64,000 bases of DNA from Deltaproteobacteria bacterium (GTDB lineage Bacteria; Desulfobacterota; Binatia; DP-6). Shown one piece after another: positions 542 through 63,591 of the stretch. Below the pieces are notes generated by a model. That model was given only the letters and a program-made list of their open reading frames with translations. It was not told the origin of the DNA and did not search any database. How positions within the stretch are numbered: the stretch's first letter is position 1; every line of letters begins with the position of its first letter. A program made the translations under genes and the position numbers. Where the stretch lies: positions 4,400 through 68,399 of the forward strand of contig VBKG01000312.1 of NCBI GenBank assembly GCA_005879585.1, in the 5' to 3' direction.

Positions 542-546
542 GAAGC

Positions 547-571
547 CGACCCGAGACTTCGTCTCGGGTCG
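547..571. repeat. 25-nt perfect hairpin CGACCCGAGAC-TTC-GTCTCGGGTCG directly after the stop of the 5..541 gene (REP-like / terminator-like)
   Basis: 11-bp stem and 3-nt loop read directly; an identical element in inverted orientation lies at 721-745. Confidence 0.6.
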
Positions 572-720
572 GGTGTCCGAAGCGAGCATGGGGTGTCGGT
601 GCGTCGAATGCGCTTTTTTTCGGGATTCACCCCGCCGTTCCGGAAAAGTCTGCGGCGCCGGCTCTGTCGGCCGCCGCATGGCGCGCGCGTCGGTCACCGG
701 GCGACATTTCGGGGTCCGGC

Positions 721-13813: not shown

Positions 13814-14119
13814 ATGGCCAACTTCGTGAAAGCCGCCGATGCCGGCGAAGTCGCGCCGGGCACGGGAAAATGCGTGACGGTCAACGGGAAGGAGATCGCG
13901 CTGTTCAACGTCGGCGGCGTCTTTCATGCGATCGACAACACGTGTCTCCATCGCGGCGGCCCGCTCGGCGAAGGCGAGCTCGACGGCACGACGGTCACCT
14001 GTCCGTGGCACGGCTGGCAGTACAACGTGACCACCGGCCGAAACATCATGGATGAAAGCGAAGGCGTCGATCGCTACGAGGTGAAGGTGGAAGGCGGCGC
14101 CGTGCTGATCGCCGTCTGA
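13814..14119 (+). CDS. Rieske [2Fe-2S] domain protein (NirD-like)
   Basis: CLHRGGPL..CPWHGW Rieske motifs; ATG 13814. Confidence 0.85.
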   Translation: MANFVKAADAGEVAPGTGKCVTVNGKEIALFNVGGVFHAIDNTCLHRGGPLGEGELDGTTVTCPWHGWQYNVTTGRNIMDESEGVDRYEVKVEGGAVLIAV

Positions 14120-14123
14120 CGCG

Positions 14124-15104
<981 letters not shown>

Positions 15105-15341
15105 GGTCACGGCCCGATCCACCAGCGGCTGGCGTGGACCTGGACGGCGTCGAACGGCATCACGCCGGCGACGATAACACGCGAAGCGACGGCGGCGCCA
15201 TGCAGGTCGCGCTTCCGCATCCGCGGGAGATGCTCGGTCCGACGAATGCGTCGCACCATCTGGACGCCGACCGCGCGCCGGGGGTAAAAGGCGCCGAGCT
15301 CGACGTGCGGGCCGGCCTCGACGCCCGCGGAGGAGGAAGGG

Positions 15342-16677
15342 ATGGCGGTGGGTCGAACGGTCGGTCGCAACGAGCCGTGCCCGTGCGGAAGCGGCAGGAA
15401 GCACAAGCGGTGCTGTCTCGCCGCCGGCGTGGAGATCGACGGCGGCGTGGGCGGACTTCCGCGGCCTGGAGGCCCACGAGCCGACCCCGTCCGACGAATC
15501 GGAGTTCGAGCAGCTCTTCATCCCGTGGCTCGTCTTCAACTGGACGGCCGACCCGGACGACGCCGAGACTCCGGACGACTGGCCCGACAGGCCGCTCGCG
15601 CTCGCCTGCCTGGAGCGGGAGCCCTCCCGATTCGACACGTTCGCGCGCCGCTTCCTCGAGGTTGCATGCGCGCGGCCCTACAGCTTCTACGTCGTCACCC
15701 GGGTAGAGCGGGGCCGGAGCCTCGGGCTGCGGGACGTCATCACGGGACGGGAGTTCGACGTCCTCGAACGCCAGGCGACGGCGCAGGCAGAGGCGGGCCT
15801 TCTCCTCTTCACCCGCGTCGTGCCGCTCGACGGCGCTGCCATCATGGTCGGTGGCGCGCCGCTGCTGATACCGCCGACCTACCGCCTGCGGCTGATCGAG
15901 CTCCGCGAGGACATGGCCGCGGGTGGCATGCCGGACGAGAGCGCCTTGCACGACTGGGACATCGTGCTCCGGGAGACCTACTTCGGGATCAAGCACGAGG
16001 TGTACCACCCGCGCCCGCCGGAGCTTCGCAACACCGACGGCGAGCCGCTCCTCCCGACCACGCTCCACTTCGTGCTGGCCTGCTCGCCGCGCGAGGCCTT
16101 CGATCGCCTCAAGTCCCTCGCCCTCGAGGCGTCCGATGAAGAGCTGCTCACCGATTCCACCCGCGATCCGGCGGGCGAGCTGCGCGCCGTGCGGTTCCCC
16201 TGGCTCAAGCGGGGCAACGCGCAGCACCGGAGCTGGGACAACACGATCATGGGGCACATCGCCATCGACGCGAGCGCTCTCGTGGTCGAGGTGAACTCCG
16301 AGCGGCGCGCGCGCGAGGTCCGCGCCGAGGTGGAGAAGCGGCTCGGCGACCTCGCGGTACTGCAGACGAGCGTCGCTGAGCCGCTGGCCCCCCAGCTCGA
16401 GGAGGCGCGTGCGGAGCGGGAGCCGAAGGGTCGCCTCGAGGAACCGCCCGAGATGCGCGAGGCGCTGCGACACTTCATCGCCGAGCACTGGGAGAGCTGG
16501 CTCGACGAGAAGGTCCCGGCGCTCCGCTTCGAGACCCCGCGCGAGGCGGTGCGGAGTCCGGAGGGTCGAGAGCGGCTGGAGGCGCTGCTCGCCCAGTTCG
16601 AGTGGCAGGGCAGGCGCGCTCCCGAGCCCGAGCTCGCACCCGACGTCGCGGCCCTGCGGGCACGGCTGGGGCTGTAG
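15342..16677 (+). CDS. SEC-C motif protein, apparently frameshifted (+1) after the SEC-C motif
   Basis: Strong RBS GGAGGAGGAAGGG before ATG 15342; N-terminal [13 protein letters not shown] in frame 0; protein-like sequence then continues only in frame +1 from about 15440 to 16677, with no start codon in that frame before 15820. Confidence 0.6.
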
Positions 16678-16689
16678 CTCCGGGGGGAC

Positions 16690-17110
16690 GTCGGGCGCGC
16701 GCCGGTTCCGCACACGCCGGCCTGGACCCTGGTGCGTGGCGACGACAGTGCAGCGCTCCTGCGTCGAGGCCAGCGCCTTGTGCACCTCGCGCGGCGTCGT
16801 GAGCACCCGGGCATGATATCTGTCGATCATGCCGATGGGCGGCGACGCGTGCGGCCGCGGCGCGCGCCTCGGTCGCGAGCTGGCTCGGGCTCGCCGCCCA
16901 TGCCGACGCGTTTCGGCTTTCGCGGGCGATCTTCGCTGCCCGGGATGTTCGCAACGTCGGCAAGCGGCTCCTCGTCGCCCGGCTTCGCCATGAACCGCGA
17001 GCATGCCATGGTCCTCGACGTGGCGCGGAAAGCCCTGCCCGTGCGGATCATCGATGAGCGTCCCGTGAGGCCGGCGGTGGGCAGATGGCCCAGGAGGTCG
17101 CGCGCGTTCG
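16690..17110 (-). pseudogene. Decayed partial copy of the IS200-like transposase
   Basis: Minus strand encodes ..EDHGMLAVHGEAG..PPIGMIDRYHARVLTTPREVHKALA, paralleling QDDHVHLIAEAEH..WDDRYHARALATPREVHNALA of the intact copy; about 85% DNA identity at 16770-16830 vs 17340-17400. Confidence 0.5.
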
Positions 17111-17129
17111 ACGCAAGCGCCCCGCGATG

Positions 17130-17801
17130 TCATCCCCTCTTTGGCCGCCCGTCCGCGACGATCAGCCCGTGTCGCTGCCAACCGATCCGGGCGAGCCAGG
17201 TATGCGCGACTGCGACAGGCCGCGGCCCGCTTTGGTCCGCCGACCGCGGCGGGCGCCAGCCGGCAAACCAGGGAGCTGAAGAGCATGGATCGATATCGGC
17301 TCCGGTGTGGCCGTGTCGCCGGAAGTTCAGCAGCACATAGGCGAGCGCGTTGTGCACCTCGCGGGGCGTCGCGAGCGCCCGGGCGTGATACCTGTCGTCC
17401 CAGACTCTTCCGCGCCGGCCGAGAGCGCGGTTTATCGCGTGGGCAAGGCGGATCGCCAGGCCGCGGACGCCGCTCGCGAGCGCCCGCGTGTGCTCGGCCT
17501 CGGCGATCAGATGGACGTGGTCGTCCTGGACTGAAAATTCGACGATCCGGAAGTCGGCGTGTGAGGAGACGGCGAGCGCGCGGCGGACGGATGGGAACAC
17601 CCGGTCGCACCGAAGGCAGCGGATGGCTGTGACCGCGCGCAGCGTCACGTGCACGGGATGGGTGGCGACATGCTGAGGCCGACCCCGATGCGGCACCCCA
17701 GGCCGGCGTCCGGGCGTCCGTTTCCGGCCGGCACCGGGGCGGCGCCCGCCCCACGTGCGGGCGAGGATCGCGAGAGTGAGTTGAGCGGGACGCCGGGCCA
17801 T
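17130..17801 (-). CDS. IS200/IS605-family Y1 (HuH) transposase, long form (COG1943 / RAYT-like)
   Basis: 223 aa; HuH motif DDHVHLIAEAEH and catalytic-Tyr region WDDRYHARAL; AT-rich promoter patch upstream. Confidence 0.8.
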   Translation of the reverse strand: MARRPAQLTLAILARTWGGRRPGAGRKRTPGRRPGVPHRGRPQHVATHPVHVTLRAVTAIRCLRCDRVFPSVRRALAVSSHADFRIVEFSVQDDHVHLIAEAEHTRALASGVRGLAIRLAHAINRALGRRGRVWDDRYHARALATPREVHNALAYVLLNFRRHGHTGADIDPCSSAPWFAGWRPPRSADQSGPRPVAVAHTWLARIGWQRHGLIVADGRPKRG

Positions 17802-18133
17802 GAACTTGATTAGGCTAATACCATTCTACGTTTGCGTTGTCAAGAGGCGGCGGACGTGGGGCGCGTGCTATCTCGGAAATCATAAGATCAGGCGACCTGA
17901 GACTCGCCGGATTTCGAGGCCGGCCCGCAATGCAGACGTCGGAGGATCGGCGTAGGCCGCCGCGGGCGGCGAGCTGTCACGCGTCGCACGGCGCGCGACG
18001 CTGCCGGCCTTCCGCCGCTCGGCGTCGCGGTCCCCCTGATCGTGACGGCGCTGTCGCTTGGACACCGTGGGCGCAATCGCGCTCCGCCCTGGACCCTTCG
18101 CGCGCGGGCGCCGCCGTCAACAGGCCCGCGTGT

Positions 18134-19033
18134 CTACGACTTCCGGAACCGCGGCGGGCGCTTCTCTAAAAAGGCCTTGCGGCCTTCCTCGGCCTCTTCC
18201 GTCCCGTAGTAGAGCTCGAGCGCGCTGAAGCCGAGCTCGGTGATGCCGCCGAGCTGCTCCGTGTCCGCATTGAACGACTGCTTTGCGAGCCTGAGTGCCG
18301 TCGGGCTCTTCTCGAGGAGCTCGCGGCACCAGCGTTCCGTCTCGGTACGAAGTTGCGCGGCCGGGACGACGGCGTTGACGAGGCCCATCGCGAGCGCCTC
18401 CTGCGCCGTGTACTGCCGGCAGAGGTACCAGATCTCCCGCGCCTTCTTCTCGCCGACGATGCGCGCCAGGTACGCGGTGCCGAACCCCGGATCGACGCTG
18501 CCCACGCGTGGCCCGACCTGTCCGAAGATCGCCGTGTCGGCGGCAATCGACAGGTCGCACAGCACGTGGAGCACGTGACCGCCGCCGATCGCGAAGCCGT
18601 TGACCATCGCGATCACGGGCTTTGGAATCGCGCGGATCACTCCGTGAAGCCCGTGGACGTCCATGCCGAGGCCGCTGGCGCCGCCGTAGCCGCTCGTGCC
18701 GCGCTCGCGCTGGTCGCCGCCGGCGGAGAAGGCCTTGTCGCCCGCGCCGGTCAGCACGGCCACGCCGACCGCGCGATCGGCCCAGGCGGCGCGGAAGGCG
18801 CGGATCAGCTCGTCGACGGTCTGGGAACGAAACGCATTCCGCACGTCGGGGCGGTTGATCGTGATCCATGCGATCCCGTCGCGCGCGTCGTAGAGGATGT
18901 CTTCGAAGGTCACGCGCTTCCCTTCAGCCAGCCGTGGGCCCTTGTCAACACGGGGCGGCGAGCGCAAGGTGTCGCGACGACGATGCTCGAGACGGCGCTC
19001 CACGCGCACCTCGCGGCCCGCGGCGCGACCCAC
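18134..19033 (-). CDS. menB: 1,4-dihydroxy-2-naphthoyl-CoA synthase-like crotonase (MenB family)
   Basis: [26 protein letters not shown] is typical of MenB; maximal ORF given, true start probably internal (TTG 18967 or GTG 18913), which would leave a divergent promoter gap before the next gene. Confidence 0.8.
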
Positions 19034-25778: not shown

Positions 25779-26639
25779 CTAGCGGATGCGAAGGGCCGGG
25801 GGTAACCCCCCGGCCCTTCGTGTTTTCGCGGCCGGGAGCGTCTCGTTGAGGCTGCCGCTCCGGAAGCCCTGGAGATCGAGCGCGACGTACGCGAAGCCGA
25901 GCCGCTTGAGCTCCTGAACCACCGCTTCACGCACTCCGGGAGCGAGGAGGCGGGGCATATCGGCGATGGGCACCTCGAGCCGCGCGATGTGCTCGTGGTG
26001 GCGTACGCGGAACTCGCGCAGTCCCTGCGCGCGCAGGAAACGCTCCGCCGCCGCCACCTGCGCCAGACGTTCGGCGGTAATCCGCGTCCCGTACGCGAAC
26101 CGCGACGAGAGACACGGGCTCGCCGGACGGTCCCACGTGGACAGACCGAGCGTCTGGCTCGCGTCGCGAATCTCCGGCTTGGAGAACTCCGCCTCGACGA
26201 GCGGATGGCGGACGCCGTGGGCGGCCGCGGCCTGCAGGCCCGGACGATGATCGGCGAGGTCGTCGACGTTCGCCCCGTCGAGCACGGCGGCGAGGCCGCG
26301 ACGGCGAGCCTCGGCGACGGCGACCGTGAACAGATTGTCCTTGCAGAAGAAGCAGCGGTTACTCGCGTTGGCGGCGTAGCCCTCGATCGTGAGCTCGTCG
26401 ACGTCGACGACGACGTGTGCGGCGCCGAGCGCCGCGGTGAGCCGTTTCGCCGTCTCGAGATCCTCCTCCGGCGTGGCGGCCGACACGGTCGTGAGGGCGA
26501 GACAGTGCGGCCCGAGCACCTCGTGCGCGACGCGAAGCAGGAAGCTCGAGTCGACGCCGCCCGAATACGCGATTAGCGCCGACGGCAGCTCCGCGAGAAG
26601 CTCGCGGAGGCGTGCGACCTTCGCGTCGACCGACGTCAC
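25779..26639 (-). CDS. PP-loop ATP pyrophosphatase, LarE-like sacrificial sulfur transferase family
   Basis: SGGVDSS PP-loop and a conserved Cys (CLSSRF); GTG start overlaps the cysK TAG (TAGTG). Confidence 0.8.
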   Translation of the reverse strand: MTSVDAKVARLRELLAELPSALIAYSGGVDSSFLLRVAHEVLGPHCLALTTVSAATPEEDLETAKRLTAALGAAHVVVDVDELTIEGYAANASNRCFFCKDNLFTVAVAEARRRGLAAVLDGANVDDLADHRPGLQAAAAHGVRHPLVEAEFSKPEIRDASQTLGLSTWDRPASPCLSSRFAYGTRITAERLAQVAAAERFLRAQGLREFRVRHHEHIARLEVPIADMPRLLAPGVREAVVQELKRLGFAYVALDLQGFRSGSLNETLPAAKTRRAGGLPPALRIR

Positions 26640-40862: not shown

Positions 40863-41810
40863 ATGGAGCTCGGACTGCTGCGCCTCGCCACGCTCCTCTA
40901 CCTCGGGGCGACGTTCGACGCGCTCGCGGGCATCGCGATGCAGCGCGAGCTGCCACGCTGGCTGCTTCCCCGGCTGCTGCTCGGCGGACTCGCCGTGCAT
41001 GGCGCCGCCATCATCCTGCGGTCCGCGGCGGCAGGACACATCGCGGTCACGACCTTCGCCGAGGCCCTGTCGTTTCTGGCAGTGGTGCTGGTGGCGATCT
41101 TCCTGGCGGTCCAGGCCCGCCGGCCGCTCGTGGCCCTCGGGGCGGTGGTGAGCCCGCTCGCCTTCGGCCTCGTGCTCGCTGCCGACGCCGCGTACAGCGG
41201 CGCGCGGCCGCTGCCCCCGGTCCTGCACAGTGCCTGGCTCCCGGTGCACGTCGTGCTCGCGACCCTCGGCGACGCCGTCTTCGCGCTCGCCTTCAGCGTC
41301 GTGCTCGCTGCCGACGCCGCGTACAGCGGCGCGCGGCCGCTGCCCCCGGTCCTGCACAGTGCCTGGCTCCCGGTGCACGTCGTGCTCGCGACCCTCGGCG
41401 ACGCCGTCTTCGCGCTCGCCTTCAGCGCGAGCCTCCTCTACCTGATCCAGGAGCGGCGTCTGAAGACGCACCGGGGCCGCGGCGTCCTGCGCCATCTGCC
41501 GTCGCTGGAGACGCTCGACCGGGTGAACTACGCGTGCCTCGTCTGGGGTCTCGTGCTGCTGACGCTCGGCATCATGAGCGGCATCGTCTGGGCGCACGAG
41601 GCGTGGGGTCGATCCTGGTCCACCGACCCGAAGCTCGTGTTCTCGCTTCTCACCTGGGCCGTGTACGTCGTCCTCCTGCAGGGCCGGATGACGGCCGGGT
41701 GGCGTGGACGCTGGGCGGCGACGCTCACGATCGCGGGCTTCGCCGTGATCGTCCTGTCCCTCGTCAGCGTCAATGTGCTCGCCCTCGGCAATCACGGGAA
41801 GGCGTTCTAG
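40863..41810 (+). CDS. Cytochrome c assembly protein, CcsA/ResC/HemX-like (WWD domain)
   Basis: WWD motif IVWAHEAWGRSWSTDPK, multiple TM helices; carries an internal 129-bp perfect tandem duplication. Confidence 0.8.
   Translation: MELGLLRLATLLYLGATFDALAGIAMQRELPRWLLPRLLLGGLAVHGAAIILRSAAAGHIAVTTFAEALSFLAVVLVAIFLAVQARRPLVALGAVVSPLAFGLVLAADAAYSGARPLPPVLHSAWLPVHVVLATLGDAVFALAFSVVLAADAAYSGARPLPPVLHSAWLPVHVVLATLGDAVFALAFSASLLYLIQERRLKTHRGRGVLRHLPSLETLDRVNYACLVWGLVLLTLGIMSGIVWAHEAWGRSWSTDPKLVFSLLTWAVYVVLLQGRMTAGWRGRWAATLTIAGFAVIVLSLVSVNVLALGNHGKAF
41170..41427 (+). repeat. Perfect 2 x 129-bp in-frame tandem duplication inside the ccsA-like gene
   Basis: 41170-41298 is identical to 41299-41427; duplicates 43 aa VLAADAAYSGARPLPPVLHSAWLPVHVVLATLGDAVFALAFS. 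Confidence 0.9.
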
Positions 41811-60017: not shown

Positions 60018-60930
60018 CAGCGACCTCCGACCGGCGACGGAGCTCCACTCCGTGACCCTGCACGGCCATCGGGTGGGGCTCCGTCTCGCCGGTCACGGGC
60101 CCGTCCTGCTGCTCGTTCACGGGATGGCGAGCAACTCGGAGGCATGGACGCGGGTCAGCTCGCTGCTCGCCGGCGGGTTCGCGATCGTCGCGCCGGACCT
60201 CCTCGGCCACGGGCAGACGGCGCAGCCGGCGGGTGACTATTCGCTGGGCGCGCACGCGACGCTCCTCCGGGATGTTCTCGTCGTCCTCGGGCACGAGCGC
60301 GCCACGGTCGTCGGACACTCGTTCGGCGGCGGCGTGGCCATGCAGTTCGCCTACCAGTTCCCGGAGCTCTGCGAGCGCCTCGTGCTGGTTGGGAGCGGCG
60401 GTCTCGGGCGGGAGGTGAACCTGCTGCTGCGGGCCCTCGCCCTTCCCGGCGCGGAGCACGTGCTCCGGCTCTTCTGTCGCGCGTCGGTGACCGAGGCGGG
60501 CCGCACCGTCGTCGAGTGGGCTCGGCGTGTCGGCTTCGGCCCGACTCCCGCCGCCGAGGAGATCGGCCGCGGCTACAACGCGCTGACCGATCCGTACGGC
60601 CGGACGGCTTTTTTTCGGACGCTCCGTGCCGTGATCGGCGTCGGCGGCCAGAGCATCAGCGCCAACGACCGGTTGCCGCTCGCCGCCGATCTCCCCACCC
60701 TCATCATCTGGGGCGCTCGCGACCCGATCATCCCGGTGCAGCATGCGCAGCGAGCGCATGACGCGATCGCGGGCAGCCGCCTCGAGATCTTCGACGGGGT
60801 CGGCCACTTCCCGCAGTGCGAGGCCCCGGAACGGTTCGCGCGGACGGTCTCGGACTTCGTCGTTTCGACGGAGCCGGCACGTCTGTCGCAGGAGCGCCTC
60901 CGCATGCGCCTGCAGGCCGGCGGACTGTAA
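60007..60930 (+). CDS. Alpha/beta-fold hydrolase
   Basis: Nucleophile elbow GHSFGG, LLLVHGMASNSEAW, C-terminal His region. Confidence 0.85.
   Translation: MLASSDLRPATELHSVTLHGHRVGLRLAGHGPVLLLVHGMASNSEAWTRVSSLLAGGFAIVAPDLLGHGQTAQPAGDYSLGAHATLLRDVLVVLGHERATVVGHSFGGGVAMQFAYQFPELCERLVLVGSGGLGREVNLLLRALALPGAEHVLRLFCRASVTEAGRTVVEWARRVGFGPTPAAEEIGRGYNALTDPYGRTAFFRTLRAVIGVGGQSISANDRLPLAADLPTLIIWGARDPIIPVQHAQRAHDAIAGSRLEIFDGVGHFPQCEAPERFARTVSDFVVSTEPARLSQERLRMRLQAGGL

Positions 60931-62205: not shown

Positions 62206-63591
<1,386 letters not shown>

What the first reader, a model, noticed from the sequence alone, without database searches (positions are those of the whole stretch)
16690..17840. Long-form IS200/IS605-type Y1 transposase with an adjacent decayed tandem partial copy
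The intact 223-aa protein has the HuH motif (HVH) and the RYHAR catalytic tyrosine region, but is about 80 aa longer than classical IS200 TnpA (COG1943/RAYT-like). Immediately downstream on the same strand lies a degenerate second copy (16690-17110). It has recognisable HuH-like and ..DRYHARVLTTPREVHKALA segments and about 85% DNA identity over short stretches, but frameshifts. This suggests a tandem duplication followed by decay, or an old second insertion. RAYT-type proteins mobilise REP hairpins (see the hairpin pair at 547-745).
Basis: partly seen in the sequence, partly recalled or inferred. Interest (0 to 1): 0.5.

Follow-up and report, generated by a model that had tools for sequence, protein, structure and literature searches.

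The report
Long RAYT-like Y1 gene plus relic
An intact gene for a long, RAYT/TIRYT-type single-strand-DNA tyrosine nuclease sits in a small strain-variable patch of an uncultured soil bacterium's genome, next to a 59-base leftover of a second copy; it is an ordinary member of a very large, little-studied family, not a classical IS200 insertion sequence.

Summary
The 223-aa ORF (17130-17801, minus strand) is real and intact. It has a coding-type GC3 bias, its own promoter-like block and dN/dS of 0.2-0.3. Its core folds like the E. coli REP-associated transposase (4ER8) and like IS608/ISDra2 TnpA. The HuH motif is H95-V-H97. The likely catalytic tyrosine is the invariant Y155 (Y-x3-N159 on helix D), not the Y138 of 'RYHAR', which is F or W in many relatives.

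The 'decayed second copy' is only a 59-nt relic (16766-16824, 88% identical to the intact gene). The rest of 16690-17110 matches no Y1 profile and is partly a remnant of an antisense gene.

The family is large (at least 1,812 50%-identity clusters). It is multicopy but diverged within Myxococcota, Planctomycetota and Binatia genomes. It has no hits in the plasmid and phage collections. In some lineages its genes are flanked by long inverted repeats or palindromes (TIRtron/REPtron-like).

The window copy has no such ends and no REP family nearby. It lies at the edge of a ~4-kb block that is absent from relatives, inside a 1.46-kb islet that differs sharply between near-identical strains and is truncated in some.

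Verdict: an ordinary new member of the RAYT/TIRYT kind, probably immobilised. It is neither an active IS200/IS605 element nor a proven REP mobiliser.

The parts
17130..17801 (-). Intact 223-aa long-form HuH-Y1 gene (RAYT/TIRYT-like). It has an N-terminal Arg/Gly arm with WGGRRPGAGRK (residues 17-27), the HuH motif H95-V-H97, the W134-x2-R-Y-H motif, the predicted catalytic Y155-x3-N159, and a C-terminal tail with DPCSS (171-175), WF.GW and TWLA..GW.RHG.
   Evidence: ORF; codon-position GC; Pfam and NCBIfam; alignment A1 and conservation counts; model with core pLDDT >80 and Foldseek top hit 4ER8 at E 1e-5; dN/dS 0.20-0.30 against orthologous alleles.
17802..17851 (-). Promoter/leader block carried by the gene: -35 TTGACA (17843-17838), 17-nt spacer, extended -10 TGG-TATTAG (17823-17815), leader GCCTAATCAAGTTC, then the ATG. 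There is no Shine-Dalgarno sequence.
   Evidence: Read directly from the sequence. The block CTTGACA...TAGAATG.TA....GCCyAATCAAG is conserved upstream of 18 paralogs whose further upstream DNA is unrelated. The consensus scanner did not call it, because the -10 lacks a final T. Promoter function is inferred.
16766..16824 (-). 59-nt relic of a second family member, encoding DRYHARVLTTPREVHKALA (family positions 135-153). It stops one residue before the conserved tyrosine.
   Evidence: The relic is conserved in near-identical contigs. It is longer (138 nt, about aa 110-154, frameshifted) in L131 and absent in L013.
17022..17125 (+). Remnant homologous to the 3' end of an antisense ORF that is longer in related contigs (L012, L131). 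In L131 that ORF has a sub-threshold bAvd-like / four-helix-bundle match. It is not Y1-derived.
   Evidence: Alignment and translations; Pfam bAvd PF22296 at E 4e-7, below the gathering score.
16825..17021 (.). Unassigned filler between the antisense remnant and the relic. It is shared with L013, and a 69-77-nt indel is polymorphic among strains at its relic-proximal end. No protein family matches it in any frame.
16678..18133 (.). Strain-variable islet, the whole interval between the ECH1 stop codon and the SEC-C gene stop codon. Its alleles differ by 13% in the Y1 gene and 34-50% in the upstream spacer, while the DNA on both sides is about 99-100% identical. In L131 the relic side (16678 to about 16825) is 99.5% identical to the window, so the alleles are mosaic.
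   Evidence: Sliding identity against L012 and L013; junction alignment; dS 0.36 (Y1) against 0.04 (ECH1); deletion alleles L175-177 and L184; L131.
14124..18133 (.). Lineage-specific block of about 4.0 kb: aldo-keto reductase (14124-15104, -), SEC-C-motif gene (15342-16677, +, frameshifted in this window), the relic and the Y1 gene. The Y1 gene sits at the ECH1-proximal edge.
   Evidence: Three relatives with ECH1 85-89% identical have the ECH1 stop followed after 20-55 nt by the Rieske gene stop, with none of these genes in between.

Best explanation
The ORF encodes a functional-looking member of a large long-form clade of class-2 (RAYT/TIRYT-like) HuH-Y1 single-strand-DNA endonuclease/transposases.

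Inferred chemistry, by homology with IS608 TnpA and E. coli TnpA-REP: H95 and H97 hold a divalent metal, and Y155 on the following helix attacks a phosphodiester in single-stranded DNA presented next to a hairpin or inverted repeat. This forms a 5'-phosphotyrosine link that can be resealed. The Arg/Gly-rich N-terminal arm and the conserved C-terminal tail are presumed extra DNA- or partner-binding parts.

In other lineages, family genes are bracketed by long inverted repeats or long palindromes, so the family behaves like the described TIRtron/REPtron units. The copy in this window carries only its own about 50-nt promoter/leader and has no detectable ends. It is therefore most likely a stranded, no longer self-mobilising copy that is still kept under purifying selection.

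It arrived with, or next to, a ~4-kb lineage-specific block. It now lies in a 1.46-kb islet that has been repeatedly rearranged. The islet holds a 59-nt relic of a second family member and remnants of an unrelated antisense gene. It also shows indels, a divergent allele exchanged between near-clonal strains, and truncation alleles.

Shown: gene integrity, fold, motif conservation, family size and copy pattern, lack of ends, locus variability, absence from relatives. Inferred: catalysis, DNA substrate, past mobility, promoter function.
For: Gene and fold:
- Intact ORF with coding bias.
- Pfam Y1_Tnp above its gathering score. REP_Tyr_transpos is the best NCBIfam hit for all 26 sampled members.
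- The AlphaFold core has the topology b1-aA-b2-b3(HuH)-aC-b4-aD(Y155). Foldseek top hits are 4ER8, then ISDra2 and IS608 TnpA.
- Y155, N159, H95, H97, S174 and S175 are nearly invariant in 270 relatives, whereas Y138 is replaceable.
- dN/dS is 0.20-0.30.

Family:
- At least 4,415 close homologues and 1,812 50%-identity clusters at E <= 1e-30, mostly full length.
- At least 10 copies on one 7-Mb contig and at least 9 in another MAG. Pairwise identity is 68-91% nt and never reaches 95%.
- No hit in 72,556 plasmids or 50,697 phages.
- Long inverted repeats or palindromes flank members in other lineages: L057/L067 107-172 nt (z 26-44), L055, L084, the shared AAGAAGGTTGGTAAGG pair in MFD09212, and 146-nt palindromes in HK-STAS.

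This copy:
- No inverted repeat between its flanks (z 1.4) and none in close paralogs (z <= 2.1).
- The flanks fold no better than shuffles (z 0.52 and 0.39).
- Paralog similarity is limited to -50..stop.
- The islet is variable and truncation alleles exist.
- The gene is absent at this site in three relatives.
Against: - No biochemical or transcript data exist; catalysis, substrate and promoter are inferred.
- Only 64 kb of this genome was available, so genome-wide copy number and any dispersed cognate repeat family could not be counted.
- The protein scores below NCBIfam's RAYT cut-off (42.6 against 80) and lacks the proline of the class-2 Y-x3-N-P signature, so its placement within class 2 is by resemblance.
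- Purifying selection and a fixed position within the population would also fit a host-beneficial (domesticated) role.
- Absence from three relatives could reflect loss in them rather than gain here.
- The model is confident only for residues about 47-160 (mean pLDDT 62.9).
Confidence: 0.65

Rival explanations
1. It is a domesticated host gene: a HuH-Y1 enzyme retained for a cellular single-strand-DNA task, inherited vertically and never mobile in this lineage.
For: - Same position in every contig of the population, including alleles 95% and 86% identical.
- dN/dS 0.2-0.3.
- No element ends.
- No hits in the plasmid and phage collections.
- No near-identical duplicates in relatives' genomes. 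These are the criteria Bertels et al. used for domesticated RAYTs (PMC5581495).
Against: - Missing from the same site in three relatives with 85-89% identical ECH1.
- Truncated to 88 codons in four contigs, including a 112-kb contig labelled as a MAG, so it is dispensable.
- Its synonymous divergence between strains is 8-fold that of the adjacent gene.
- A dead second copy sits next to it.
- Up to 10 or more diverged paralogs per genome, some with inverted-repeat ends, in other lineages.
- GC3 is at the low edge for this window, 0.79 against 0.88 +/- 0.05.
Confidence: 0.15
2. It is a true REP-associated transposase (RAYT) that maintains a dispersed family of REP/REPIN hairpins in this genome, such as the inverted hairpin pair at 546-572/720-746.
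For: - Best NCBIfam and best structural match are RAYT.
- The hairpin pair is a perfect 12-bp stem present twice in inverted orientation 147 nt apart, a REPIN-like layout.
- Some family members in Planctomycetota are flanked by long palindromic repeats.
Against: - No REP-like sequence flanks the gene.
- The 546/720 hairpin occurs only there in 64 kb and in none of the 184 loci fetched by then.
- No 16-mer occurs three or more times in the window.
- Each hairpin sits just past the end of a convergent gene, as terminators do.
- The NCBIfam score is below its cut-off, and there is no Y-x3-N-P motif.
Confidence: 0.08
3. It is an active IS200/IS605-family insertion sequence, with an adjacent decayed tandem duplicate.
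For: - HuH-Y1 fold shared with IS608/ISDra2 TnpA.
- A partial second copy lies nearby.
- The locus is lineage-specific.
- Partial copies are typical of IS200 (Quentin et al., PMC6006769).
Against: - NCBIfam transpos_IS200 scores 17.6 bits against a cut-off of 55.
- The Y motif is Y-x3-N, not Y-x3-Q (Table 1 of PMC6006769).
- The protein is 223 aa, against a median of about 150.
- No tnpB gene, no subterminal hairpins, and no conserved DNA beyond -50..stop among paralogs.
- Copies within genomes are at most 91% identical.
- No hits in the plasmid collection.
- Alleles at the same site differ by 13%, which is not what a recent insertion gives.
Confidence: 0.05

Closest known systems
E. coli TnpA-REP / RAYT (PDB 4ER8; Quentin subclass 2.2, Bertels group 2)
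   Same: It is the best structural match (Foldseek E 1e-5, TM 0.58 on the target) and the best NCBIfam family. It shares the HuH motif on strand 3, the W-x2-R-aromatic motif before strand 4, a tyrosine followed three residues later by Asn on helix D, and a conserved Ser-Ser in the proximal tail (Table 1 of PMC6006769). The family is chromosomal, with no hits in the plasmid collection.
   Different: It is 223 aa against 165, with an extra N-terminal WGGxRxGAGRK arm and a longer tail. There is no Pro after the Asn. It scores below the family cut-off. No flanking REPs and no REP population are seen in 64 kb. Relatives carry many diverged paralogs per genome, not one.
TIRYT / TIRtron (Di Nocera et al. 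2013, PMC3733652); largely Quentin subclass 2.1 (Bertels group 1)
   Same: These are RAYT-like Y1 genes bracketed by terminal inverted repeats instead of REPs. They are long proteins (median 238 aa) with a Ser-Ser tail motif, are prevalent in 'delta-proteobacteria' and have no REPs. Several members of this family have such inverted repeats of 13-172 nt.
   Different: The window copy and its close paralogs have no detectable inverted repeats. There is no C-terminal helix-turn-helix domain (only Y1_Tnp in Pfam). The motifs are DHVH / W..RYH / YVLxN-x rather than NHVH / W[EQ] / YIELNP. I did not search systematically for the GGGGWSAS motif; by eye only one repeat (L080) fits it. Membership of subclass 2.1 could not be tested without the published profiles.
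Quentin subclass 2.3 (multicopy class-2 TnpA-Y1 of Chromatiales/Alteromonadales)
   Same: [quoted passage not shown] The copy pattern here matches.
   Different: Different taxa, length (325 aa against 223), motifs (NHYH, YVDLNP) and insertion domains. The resemblance is in behaviour only.
IS200/IS605 TnpA (IS608, ISDra2; Quentin subclass 1.1)
   Same: The same HuH-Y1 fold and presumably the same ssDNA cleavage chemistry.
   Different: See the membership test. The Y-x3-Q motif, size, ends, copy identity, plasmid carriage and the NCBIfam score all fail.

Membership tests
Pfam Y1_Tnp (PF01797) superfamily | Score at or above the gathering threshold | tested here: met
   28.9 bits against 23, residues 78-145.
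HuH-Y1 nucleases in general | HuH motif on a central strand and a single conserved Tyr on the following C-terminal helix | tested here: met
   H95-V-H97 lies on strand 95-102 and Y155 on helix 146-163. H95/H97 are conserved in 117-118/120 close and 146-148/149 distant relatives, and Y155 in 120/120 and 145/148. The fold matches 4ER8, 2XM3 and 2VJV. Activity was not tested.
IS200/IS605 TnpA (class 1) | NCBIfam transpos_IS200 at or above its cut-off | tested here: not met
   17.6 bits against 55.
IS200/IS605 TnpA (class 1) | Y-x3-Q tyrosine motif | tested here: not met
   The sequence is Y155-V-L-L-N159. Asn is found at this position in 120/120 and 144/148 relatives. The signature is from PMC6006769 Table 1.
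IS200/IS605 TnpA (class 1) | Subterminal hairpins at both element ends | tested here: not met
   The flanks fold no better than shuffles (z 0.52 and 0.39). No DNA beyond -50..stop is shared with paralogs.
IS200/IS605 TnpA (class 1) | Several near-identical (>=95%) copies per genome; frequent plasmid carriage | tested here: not met
   The window holds one copy plus a relic. Family copies within relatives' genomes are 68-91% identical. There are no plasmid or phage hits. The genome of this organism itself could not be scanned.
RAYT / TnpA-REP (class 2) | NCBIfam REP_Tyr_transpos at or above its cut-off | tested here: not met
   42.6 bits against 80. It is the best family for 26/26 members, with a best E-value of 4.3e-12.
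RAYT / TnpA-REP (class 2) | Y-x3-N-P tyrosine motif | tested here: not met
   Y-x3-N is present and invariant, but the next residue is F/R/A/W/H and Pro is not among its four commonest residues.
RAYT / TnpA-REP (class 2) | Gene flanked by REP/REPIN copies whose 16-mers are abundant genome-wide | tested here: inconclusive
   No flanking hairpin repeats. No 16-mer occurs three or more times in 64 kb. The genome-wide frequency cannot be tested with one window.
RAYT / TnpA-REP (class 2) | About one copy per genome, vertically inherited | tested here: inconclusive
   The position is fixed within the population, but the gene is absent in three relatives. Paralogs 80% and 65% identical occur in the same sample series at other loci. 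Relatives' genomes hold up to 10 or more copies.
TIRYT / TIRtron | RAYT-like gene bracketed by terminal inverted repeats | tested here: not met
   For the window copy, the best upstream-versus-reverse-complemented-downstream alignment scores 25 (z 1.4), and close paralogs reach z <= 2.1. The same test detects inverted repeats in L057/L067 (z 26-44), L055, L084 and MFD09212 copies.
TIRYT / Quentin subclass 2.1 | C-terminal helix-turn-helix domain (Bac_DnaA_C / HTH_23 / HTH_28) | tested here: not met
   Pfam reports only Y1_Tnp at E <= 1. The tail is instead the family-specific DPCSS..WF.GW..TWL..GW.RHG.

The most novel reading that the evidence does not exclude
The roughly 220-aa architecture may define a subclass of the TnpA-Y1 superfamily that the published classifications (Bertels 2017; Quentin 2018) do not describe. 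The architecture is an N-terminal WGGxRxGAGRK arm, a HuH core, Y-x3-N without Pro, and a DPCSS..WF.GW..GW.RHG tail. Such a subclass would be very abundant in soil Myxococcota, Binatia and Planctomycetota. It would spread as a minimal 'promoter plus gene' unit that acquires or loses inverted-repeat ends. Its presence would mark, and perhaps cause, small hypervariable intergenic islets such as 16678-18133.
Probability: 0.25. Interest if true: 0.5.

Novelty: new member of a known kind. Interest (0 to 1): 0.27.

Why it matters
For annotation, this gene should not be called an IS200/IS605 insertion sequence, and RYHAR should not be taken as the catalytic tyrosine motif; Y155-x3-N159 is the candidate.

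The locus also gives a compact natural series: an intact gene, a divergent allele, a truncated allele, a 138-nt relic, a 59-nt relic and empty sites in relatives. This series shows how RAYT/TIRYT-like genes decay and turn over within a near-clonal soil population.

More broadly, a family with at least 1,800 50%-identity clusters and up to ten or more diverged copies per genome has no tested function. It would be a reasonable target for ssDNA-cleavage assays. None of this changes the current picture of HuH-Y1 enzymes.

Tried and rejected
- **Extent of the second copy.** I searched all six frames of 16500-17135 with a family HMM built from the 200-260-aa members of 120 homologues, and with Pfam. 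Only the 59-nt relic matched.
- **PDB by sequence.** A sequence-only PDB search with the profile and with the core alone found nothing relevant. Only the fold search worked.
- **Element ends.** Repeat finder, upstream-versus-downstream alignment with shuffles, and ssDNA folding found nothing in the window or in close paralogs.
- **REP link.** The 546/720 hairpin is not found elsewhere. The k-mer census and Rfam were negative.
- **L007 as a less-decayed second copy.** I rejected it as firm evidence. Its tail is 98.7% identical to the P0075 paralog locus elsewhere (gshB / rsmE-prmA-rpsU-dnaG-rpoD neighbourhood). It is therefore either an assembly chimera through the shared ~50 nt or a rare recombinant.
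- **'Empty sites' L175-177 and L184.** These are deletion derivatives of the divergent allele, not empty sites. True empty sites were found only in more distant relatives.
- **Defence or phage role.** PADLOC gave nothing, and PHROGs gave only a weak generic transposase hit.
- **Filler 16825-17021.** No family matched it.
- **Literature.** A search for this long form in Myxococcota/Binatota returned only the general classifications.
Full report
**The intact gene.**
The window is 71.5% G+C. The ORF at 17130..17801 on the minus strand is uninterrupted and encodes 223 aa. GC is highest at its third codon positions and lowest at its second (GC3 0.79, GC2 0.59). GC3 is at the low edge of the 26 long ORFs of the window (0.88 +/- 0.05). 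Pfam Y1_Tnp scores 28.9 bits, above the gathering score of 23. In NCBIfam the best family is REP-associated tyrosine transposase (42.6 bits, cut-off 80), and IS200/IS605 transposase scores only 17.6 bits (cut-off 55). All 26 sampled relatives behave the same way.

**The second copy.**
Translated search, local DNA alignment and the repeat finder agree on a single homologous stretch. Positions 16766-16824 match 17339-17397 at 52/59 nt and encode DRYHARVLTTPREVHKALA. The local alignment score is 83, against 26.6 +/- 3.2 for shuffles. A family HMM built from the 200-260-aa members of 120 homologues finds this stretch (17.9 bits) and nothing else in any frame of 16500-17135. Pfam finds nothing there either.

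The DNA from about 17125 to 17022 is homologous to the 3' end of an ORF on the opposite strand in related contigs L012 and L131. There that ORF is longer and gives a sub-threshold bAvd-like / four-helix-bundle match. The stretch 16825-17021 is unassigned.

There is a relic of a second family member, but it is 59 nt long, not 420.

**History of the relic.**
- In contig L131, which carries the divergent allele of the locus, the relic is 138 nt long (about residues 110-154) and frameshifted.
- In L013 the relic is absent.
- A 69-77-nt indel next to it is polymorphic among otherwise identical contigs.
- The L131 relic is 80-83% identical to the adjacent gene, to its allele and to paralogs elsewhere alike. 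A tandem duplication is therefore no better supported than a second, older arrival.
- Contig L007 seemed to keep the whole C-terminal half of the second copy. That tail is 98.7% identical to a full-length paralog (P0075) at an unrelated locus between gshB and rsmE-prmA-rpsU-dnaG-rpoD. I treat L007 as a probable assembly chimera or rare recombinant and do not rely on it.

**What the protein is.**
Homologues are very numerous. At least 4,415 were found in the word-indexed search. The exhaustive profile search found 7,477 50%-identity cluster representatives at E <= 1e-3 and 1,812 at E <= 1e-30, mostly covering profile positions 1-221. The long form is therefore a conserved architecture, not an accident of this ORF.

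The AlphaFold model is confident only for the core (residues about 47-160, block means mostly 82-95; overall pLDDT 62.9). Its topology is strand 50-56, helix 69-79, strands 84-91 and 95-102, helix 105-127, strand 139-142 and helix 146-163. Foldseek against the PDB gives the E. coli REP-associated transposase 4ER8 first (E 1e-5), then ISDra2 and IS608 TnpA. Sequence-only PDB searches found nothing relevant.

Conservation across 120 close and 150 distant relatives:

| Residue | Close relatives | Distant relatives |
|---|---|---|
| H95 | H in 117/120 | H in 148/149 |
| H97 | H in 118/120 | H in 146/149 |
| Y155 | Y in 120/120 | Y in 145/148 |
| N159 | N in 120/120 | N in 144/148 |
| Y138 ('RYHAR') | F in 11/119 | F or W in 38/150 |

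Y155 lies on the helix after strand 4, where the catalytic tyrosine of IS608 TnpA and RAYT lies. That placement is established knowledge of those structures; the register with E. coli RAYT is from my memory of its sequence and was not tested. I therefore assign Y155, not Y138, as the nucleophile.

Y-x3-N resembles the class-2 (TnpA-REP) signature Y-x3-N-P of Quentin et al. and differs from the class-1 Y-x3-Q (PMC6006769). However, the residue after Asn is F/R/A/W/H, and Pro is not among its four commonest residues. The invariant S174-S175 matches the 'SS' proximal-tail motif listed for subclasses 2.1, 2.2 and 2.6. The N-terminal WGGxRxGAGRK arm is predicted with low confidence (pLDDT below 50 for residues 1-46).

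**How the family behaves elsewhere.**
In species-representative genomes the family is found mainly in Myxococcota/Polyangia, Planctomycetota and Candidatus Binatus. It is multicopy, with at least 10 loci on one 7-Mb contig and at least 9 in another MAG. Copies within a genome are 68-91% identical in DNA and never reach 95%. There is no tblastn hit in 72,556 plasmids or 50,697 phage records.

By the criteria of Bertels et al. (copies per replicon, duplicates at >=95%, plasmid carriage, flanking 16-mers; PMC5581495), this is not IS-like. It resembles the multicopy, diverged pattern described for Quentin's subclass 2.3.

In several lineages the genes are bracketed by inverted repeats:
- 107-172 nt in L057/L067 (z 26-44 against shuffles);
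- 40-45 nt in L055 and L084;
- a shared AAGAAGGTTGGTAAGG pair in the MFD09212 copies;
- 146-nt self-complementary repeats, 95% identical between loci, around each gene in a Planctomycetota MAG.

This is the TIRtron/REPtron arrangement described by Di Nocera et al. (PMC3733652).

**This copy has no such ends.**
- The best alignment between its upstream flank and the reverse complement of its downstream flank scores z 1.4. Close paralogs from the same soils score z <= 2.1.
- Both flanks fold no better than shuffled sequence (z 0.52 and 0.39).
- Similarity to 18 paralogs begins about 50 nt before the ATG and ends at the stop codon.
- The conserved 50 nt reads CTTGACA, a 17-nt spacer, TGG-TATTAG, GCCTAATCAAGTTC, then ATG. 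That is a -35 box, an extended -10 box and a very short leader without a Shine-Dalgarno sequence. Promoter function is inferred; the consensus scanner did not call it.
- No REP-like family is visible. The 12-bp-stem hairpin at 546-572 recurs only at 720-746 and in none of the 184 loci fetched by then. No 16-mer occurs three or more times in the window. Rfam gives no hit.

**The locus.**
The identical protein, a 95% allele and an 86% allele all lie between an enoyl-CoA hydratase-family gene (ECH1, 18134-18913) and a convergent SEC-C-motif gene.

Against the 86% allele (L012/L013), the DNA is about 99-100% identical beyond 18200 on the ECH1 side, and 95-100% identical per 100-nt window below 16700 on the SEC-C side. 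Inside 18133-16678, identity is 81-90% in the gene and 50-66% in the upstream spacer. Synonymous divergence is 0.36 in the Y1 gene against 0.04 in ECH1, and dN/dS is 0.20 (0.30 for the 95% allele). Breakpoints differ between contigs: the last ~40 nt of ECH1 are divergent in L012 but not in L013 or L098, and the relic side is 99.5% identical in L131. This pattern fits allele exchange by homologous recombination; that reading is an inference.

Four contigs, including a 112-kb contig of assembly GCA_009772775.1, carry the divergent allele truncated after codon ~88 and fused to the SEC-C flank. The gene is therefore dispensable.

In three relatives whose ECH1 is 85-89% identical, the ECH1 stop is followed after 20-55 nt by the stop of the Rieske gene (for the identities, for the loci). 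In the window, that Rieske gene lies at 13814-14119. The ~4.0-kb interval 14124-18133 (aldo-keto reductase, SEC-C gene, relic, Y1 gene) is thus specific to this lineage, and the Y1 gene sits at its ECH1-proximal edge. Gain here is more parsimonious than three losses, but loss is not excluded.

**Organism.**
An identical CysK is labelled 'MAG: Deltaproteobacteria bacterium' at NCBI. An ECH1 homologue of 82% identity is labelled Candidatus Binatia. I did not establish the taxonomy further.

**Conclusion.**
The best-supported reading is a functional-looking but stranded member of a large RAYT/TIRYT-like HuH-Y1 family. It is kept under purifying selection, lacks element ends, and sits in a small recombining, decaying islet beside a 59-nt relic of another member. 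It fails the tested defining features of IS200/IS605 elements. It also fails or leaves open those of bona fide REP-associated RAYTs and of TIRtrons, while resembling both in fold and, at family level, in genomic behaviour. It is a new member of a known kind and of modest interest.

Noticed in passing
window 15342-16677 (+), deletion point at 15441/15442: The SEC-C-motif gene is 475 aa in all related contigs. In this window it lacks 92 nt between two ATCGACG repeats, so it is frameshifted. This is either a pseudogene in this strain or an assembly error.
   Followed up: partly
window 546-572 and 720-746: Two copies (26/27 identical) of a perfect 12-bp-stem hairpin, CCGACCCGAGAC-TTC-GTCTCGGGTCGG, lie in inverted orientation 147 nt apart. 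The first starts 5 nt after a TAA stop codon. The second is followed by a CTAG that could be the stop of a convergent minus-strand gene; I did not verify that gene. The layout is REPIN-like, but there are no further copies in the window or in the 184 loci fetched by then. They are possibly paired terminators.
   Followed up: partly
window 14124-18133: A ~4-kb block (aldo-keto reductase, SEC-C gene, Y1 islet) lies between ECH1 and the Rieske gene. These two genes are adjacent (20-55 nt apart) in three relatives. Whether the block moved as a unit is unknown.
   Followed up: partly
window 16810-16833 (-): The 5' edge of the relic forms a perfect 8-bp palindrome with the unrelated sequence just upstream (GGCATGAT-CGACAGAT-ATCATGCC). 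It is absent from the L131 version and may be a trace of how the deletion junction formed.
   Followed up: no
L131 about 380-940 (antisense); L012 9997-10248; window 17022-17125: In strains with the divergent allele, a bAvd-like / 23S-rRNA-IVS-type four-helix-bundle ORF remnant lies antisense just downstream of the Y1 gene (Pfam PF22296, E 4e-7, below the gathering score). Only its last ~100 nt survive in the window.
   Followed up: partly
window 17802-17851 and 18 paralog loci (L098-L125): A strongly conserved ~50-nt upstream block, CTTGACA-N9-10-TAGAATG-N-TA....GCCyAATCAAG-N2-7-ATG, accompanies every close paralog whatever its surroundings. The conserved TAGAAT in the spacer and the AATCAAG leader might be regulatory.
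   Followed up: partly
L060 2292-2437; L084 2600-2746 and 3997-4143; L071 (Planctomycetota MAG HK-STAS-PLAN-33): Self-complementary repeats of about 146 nt, 95% identical between loci, flank each family gene. L084 holds two family genes in tandem. This is a REPtron-like arrangement worth a genome-wide count.
   Followed up: partly
L057 and L067 (MAG EC_MBin.16): Family genes are bracketed by terminal inverted repeats of 107-172 nt that are 91% identical between the two loci. This is the clearest TIRtron-like units in the family.
   Followed up: partly
window 41126-41512: Three tandem units of about 129 nt: the first two are 90% identical over their full length, and the second and third share exact stretches of at least 43 nt (repeat families D3, D11 and D15). 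They probably lie within a coding region.
   Followed up: no
window 60237-60366 and 62273-62402: Two copies of a 130-nt direct repeat, 89% identical and 2 kb apart.
   Followed up: no
window 25789-25820: A perfect 14-bp-stem G+C-rich hairpin (CGAAGGGCCGGGGG-TAAC-CCCCCGGCCCTTCG), the strongest in the window.
   Followed up: no
L012 636-2267 versus L001 2045-2536: Upstream of the shared alanine-zipper/NUDIX genes, contig L012 carries a Cpn60 gene where L001 carries a CarD gene. This may be another structural difference between near-identical strains. I did not confirm that the window shares L001's arrangement there.
   Followed up: no
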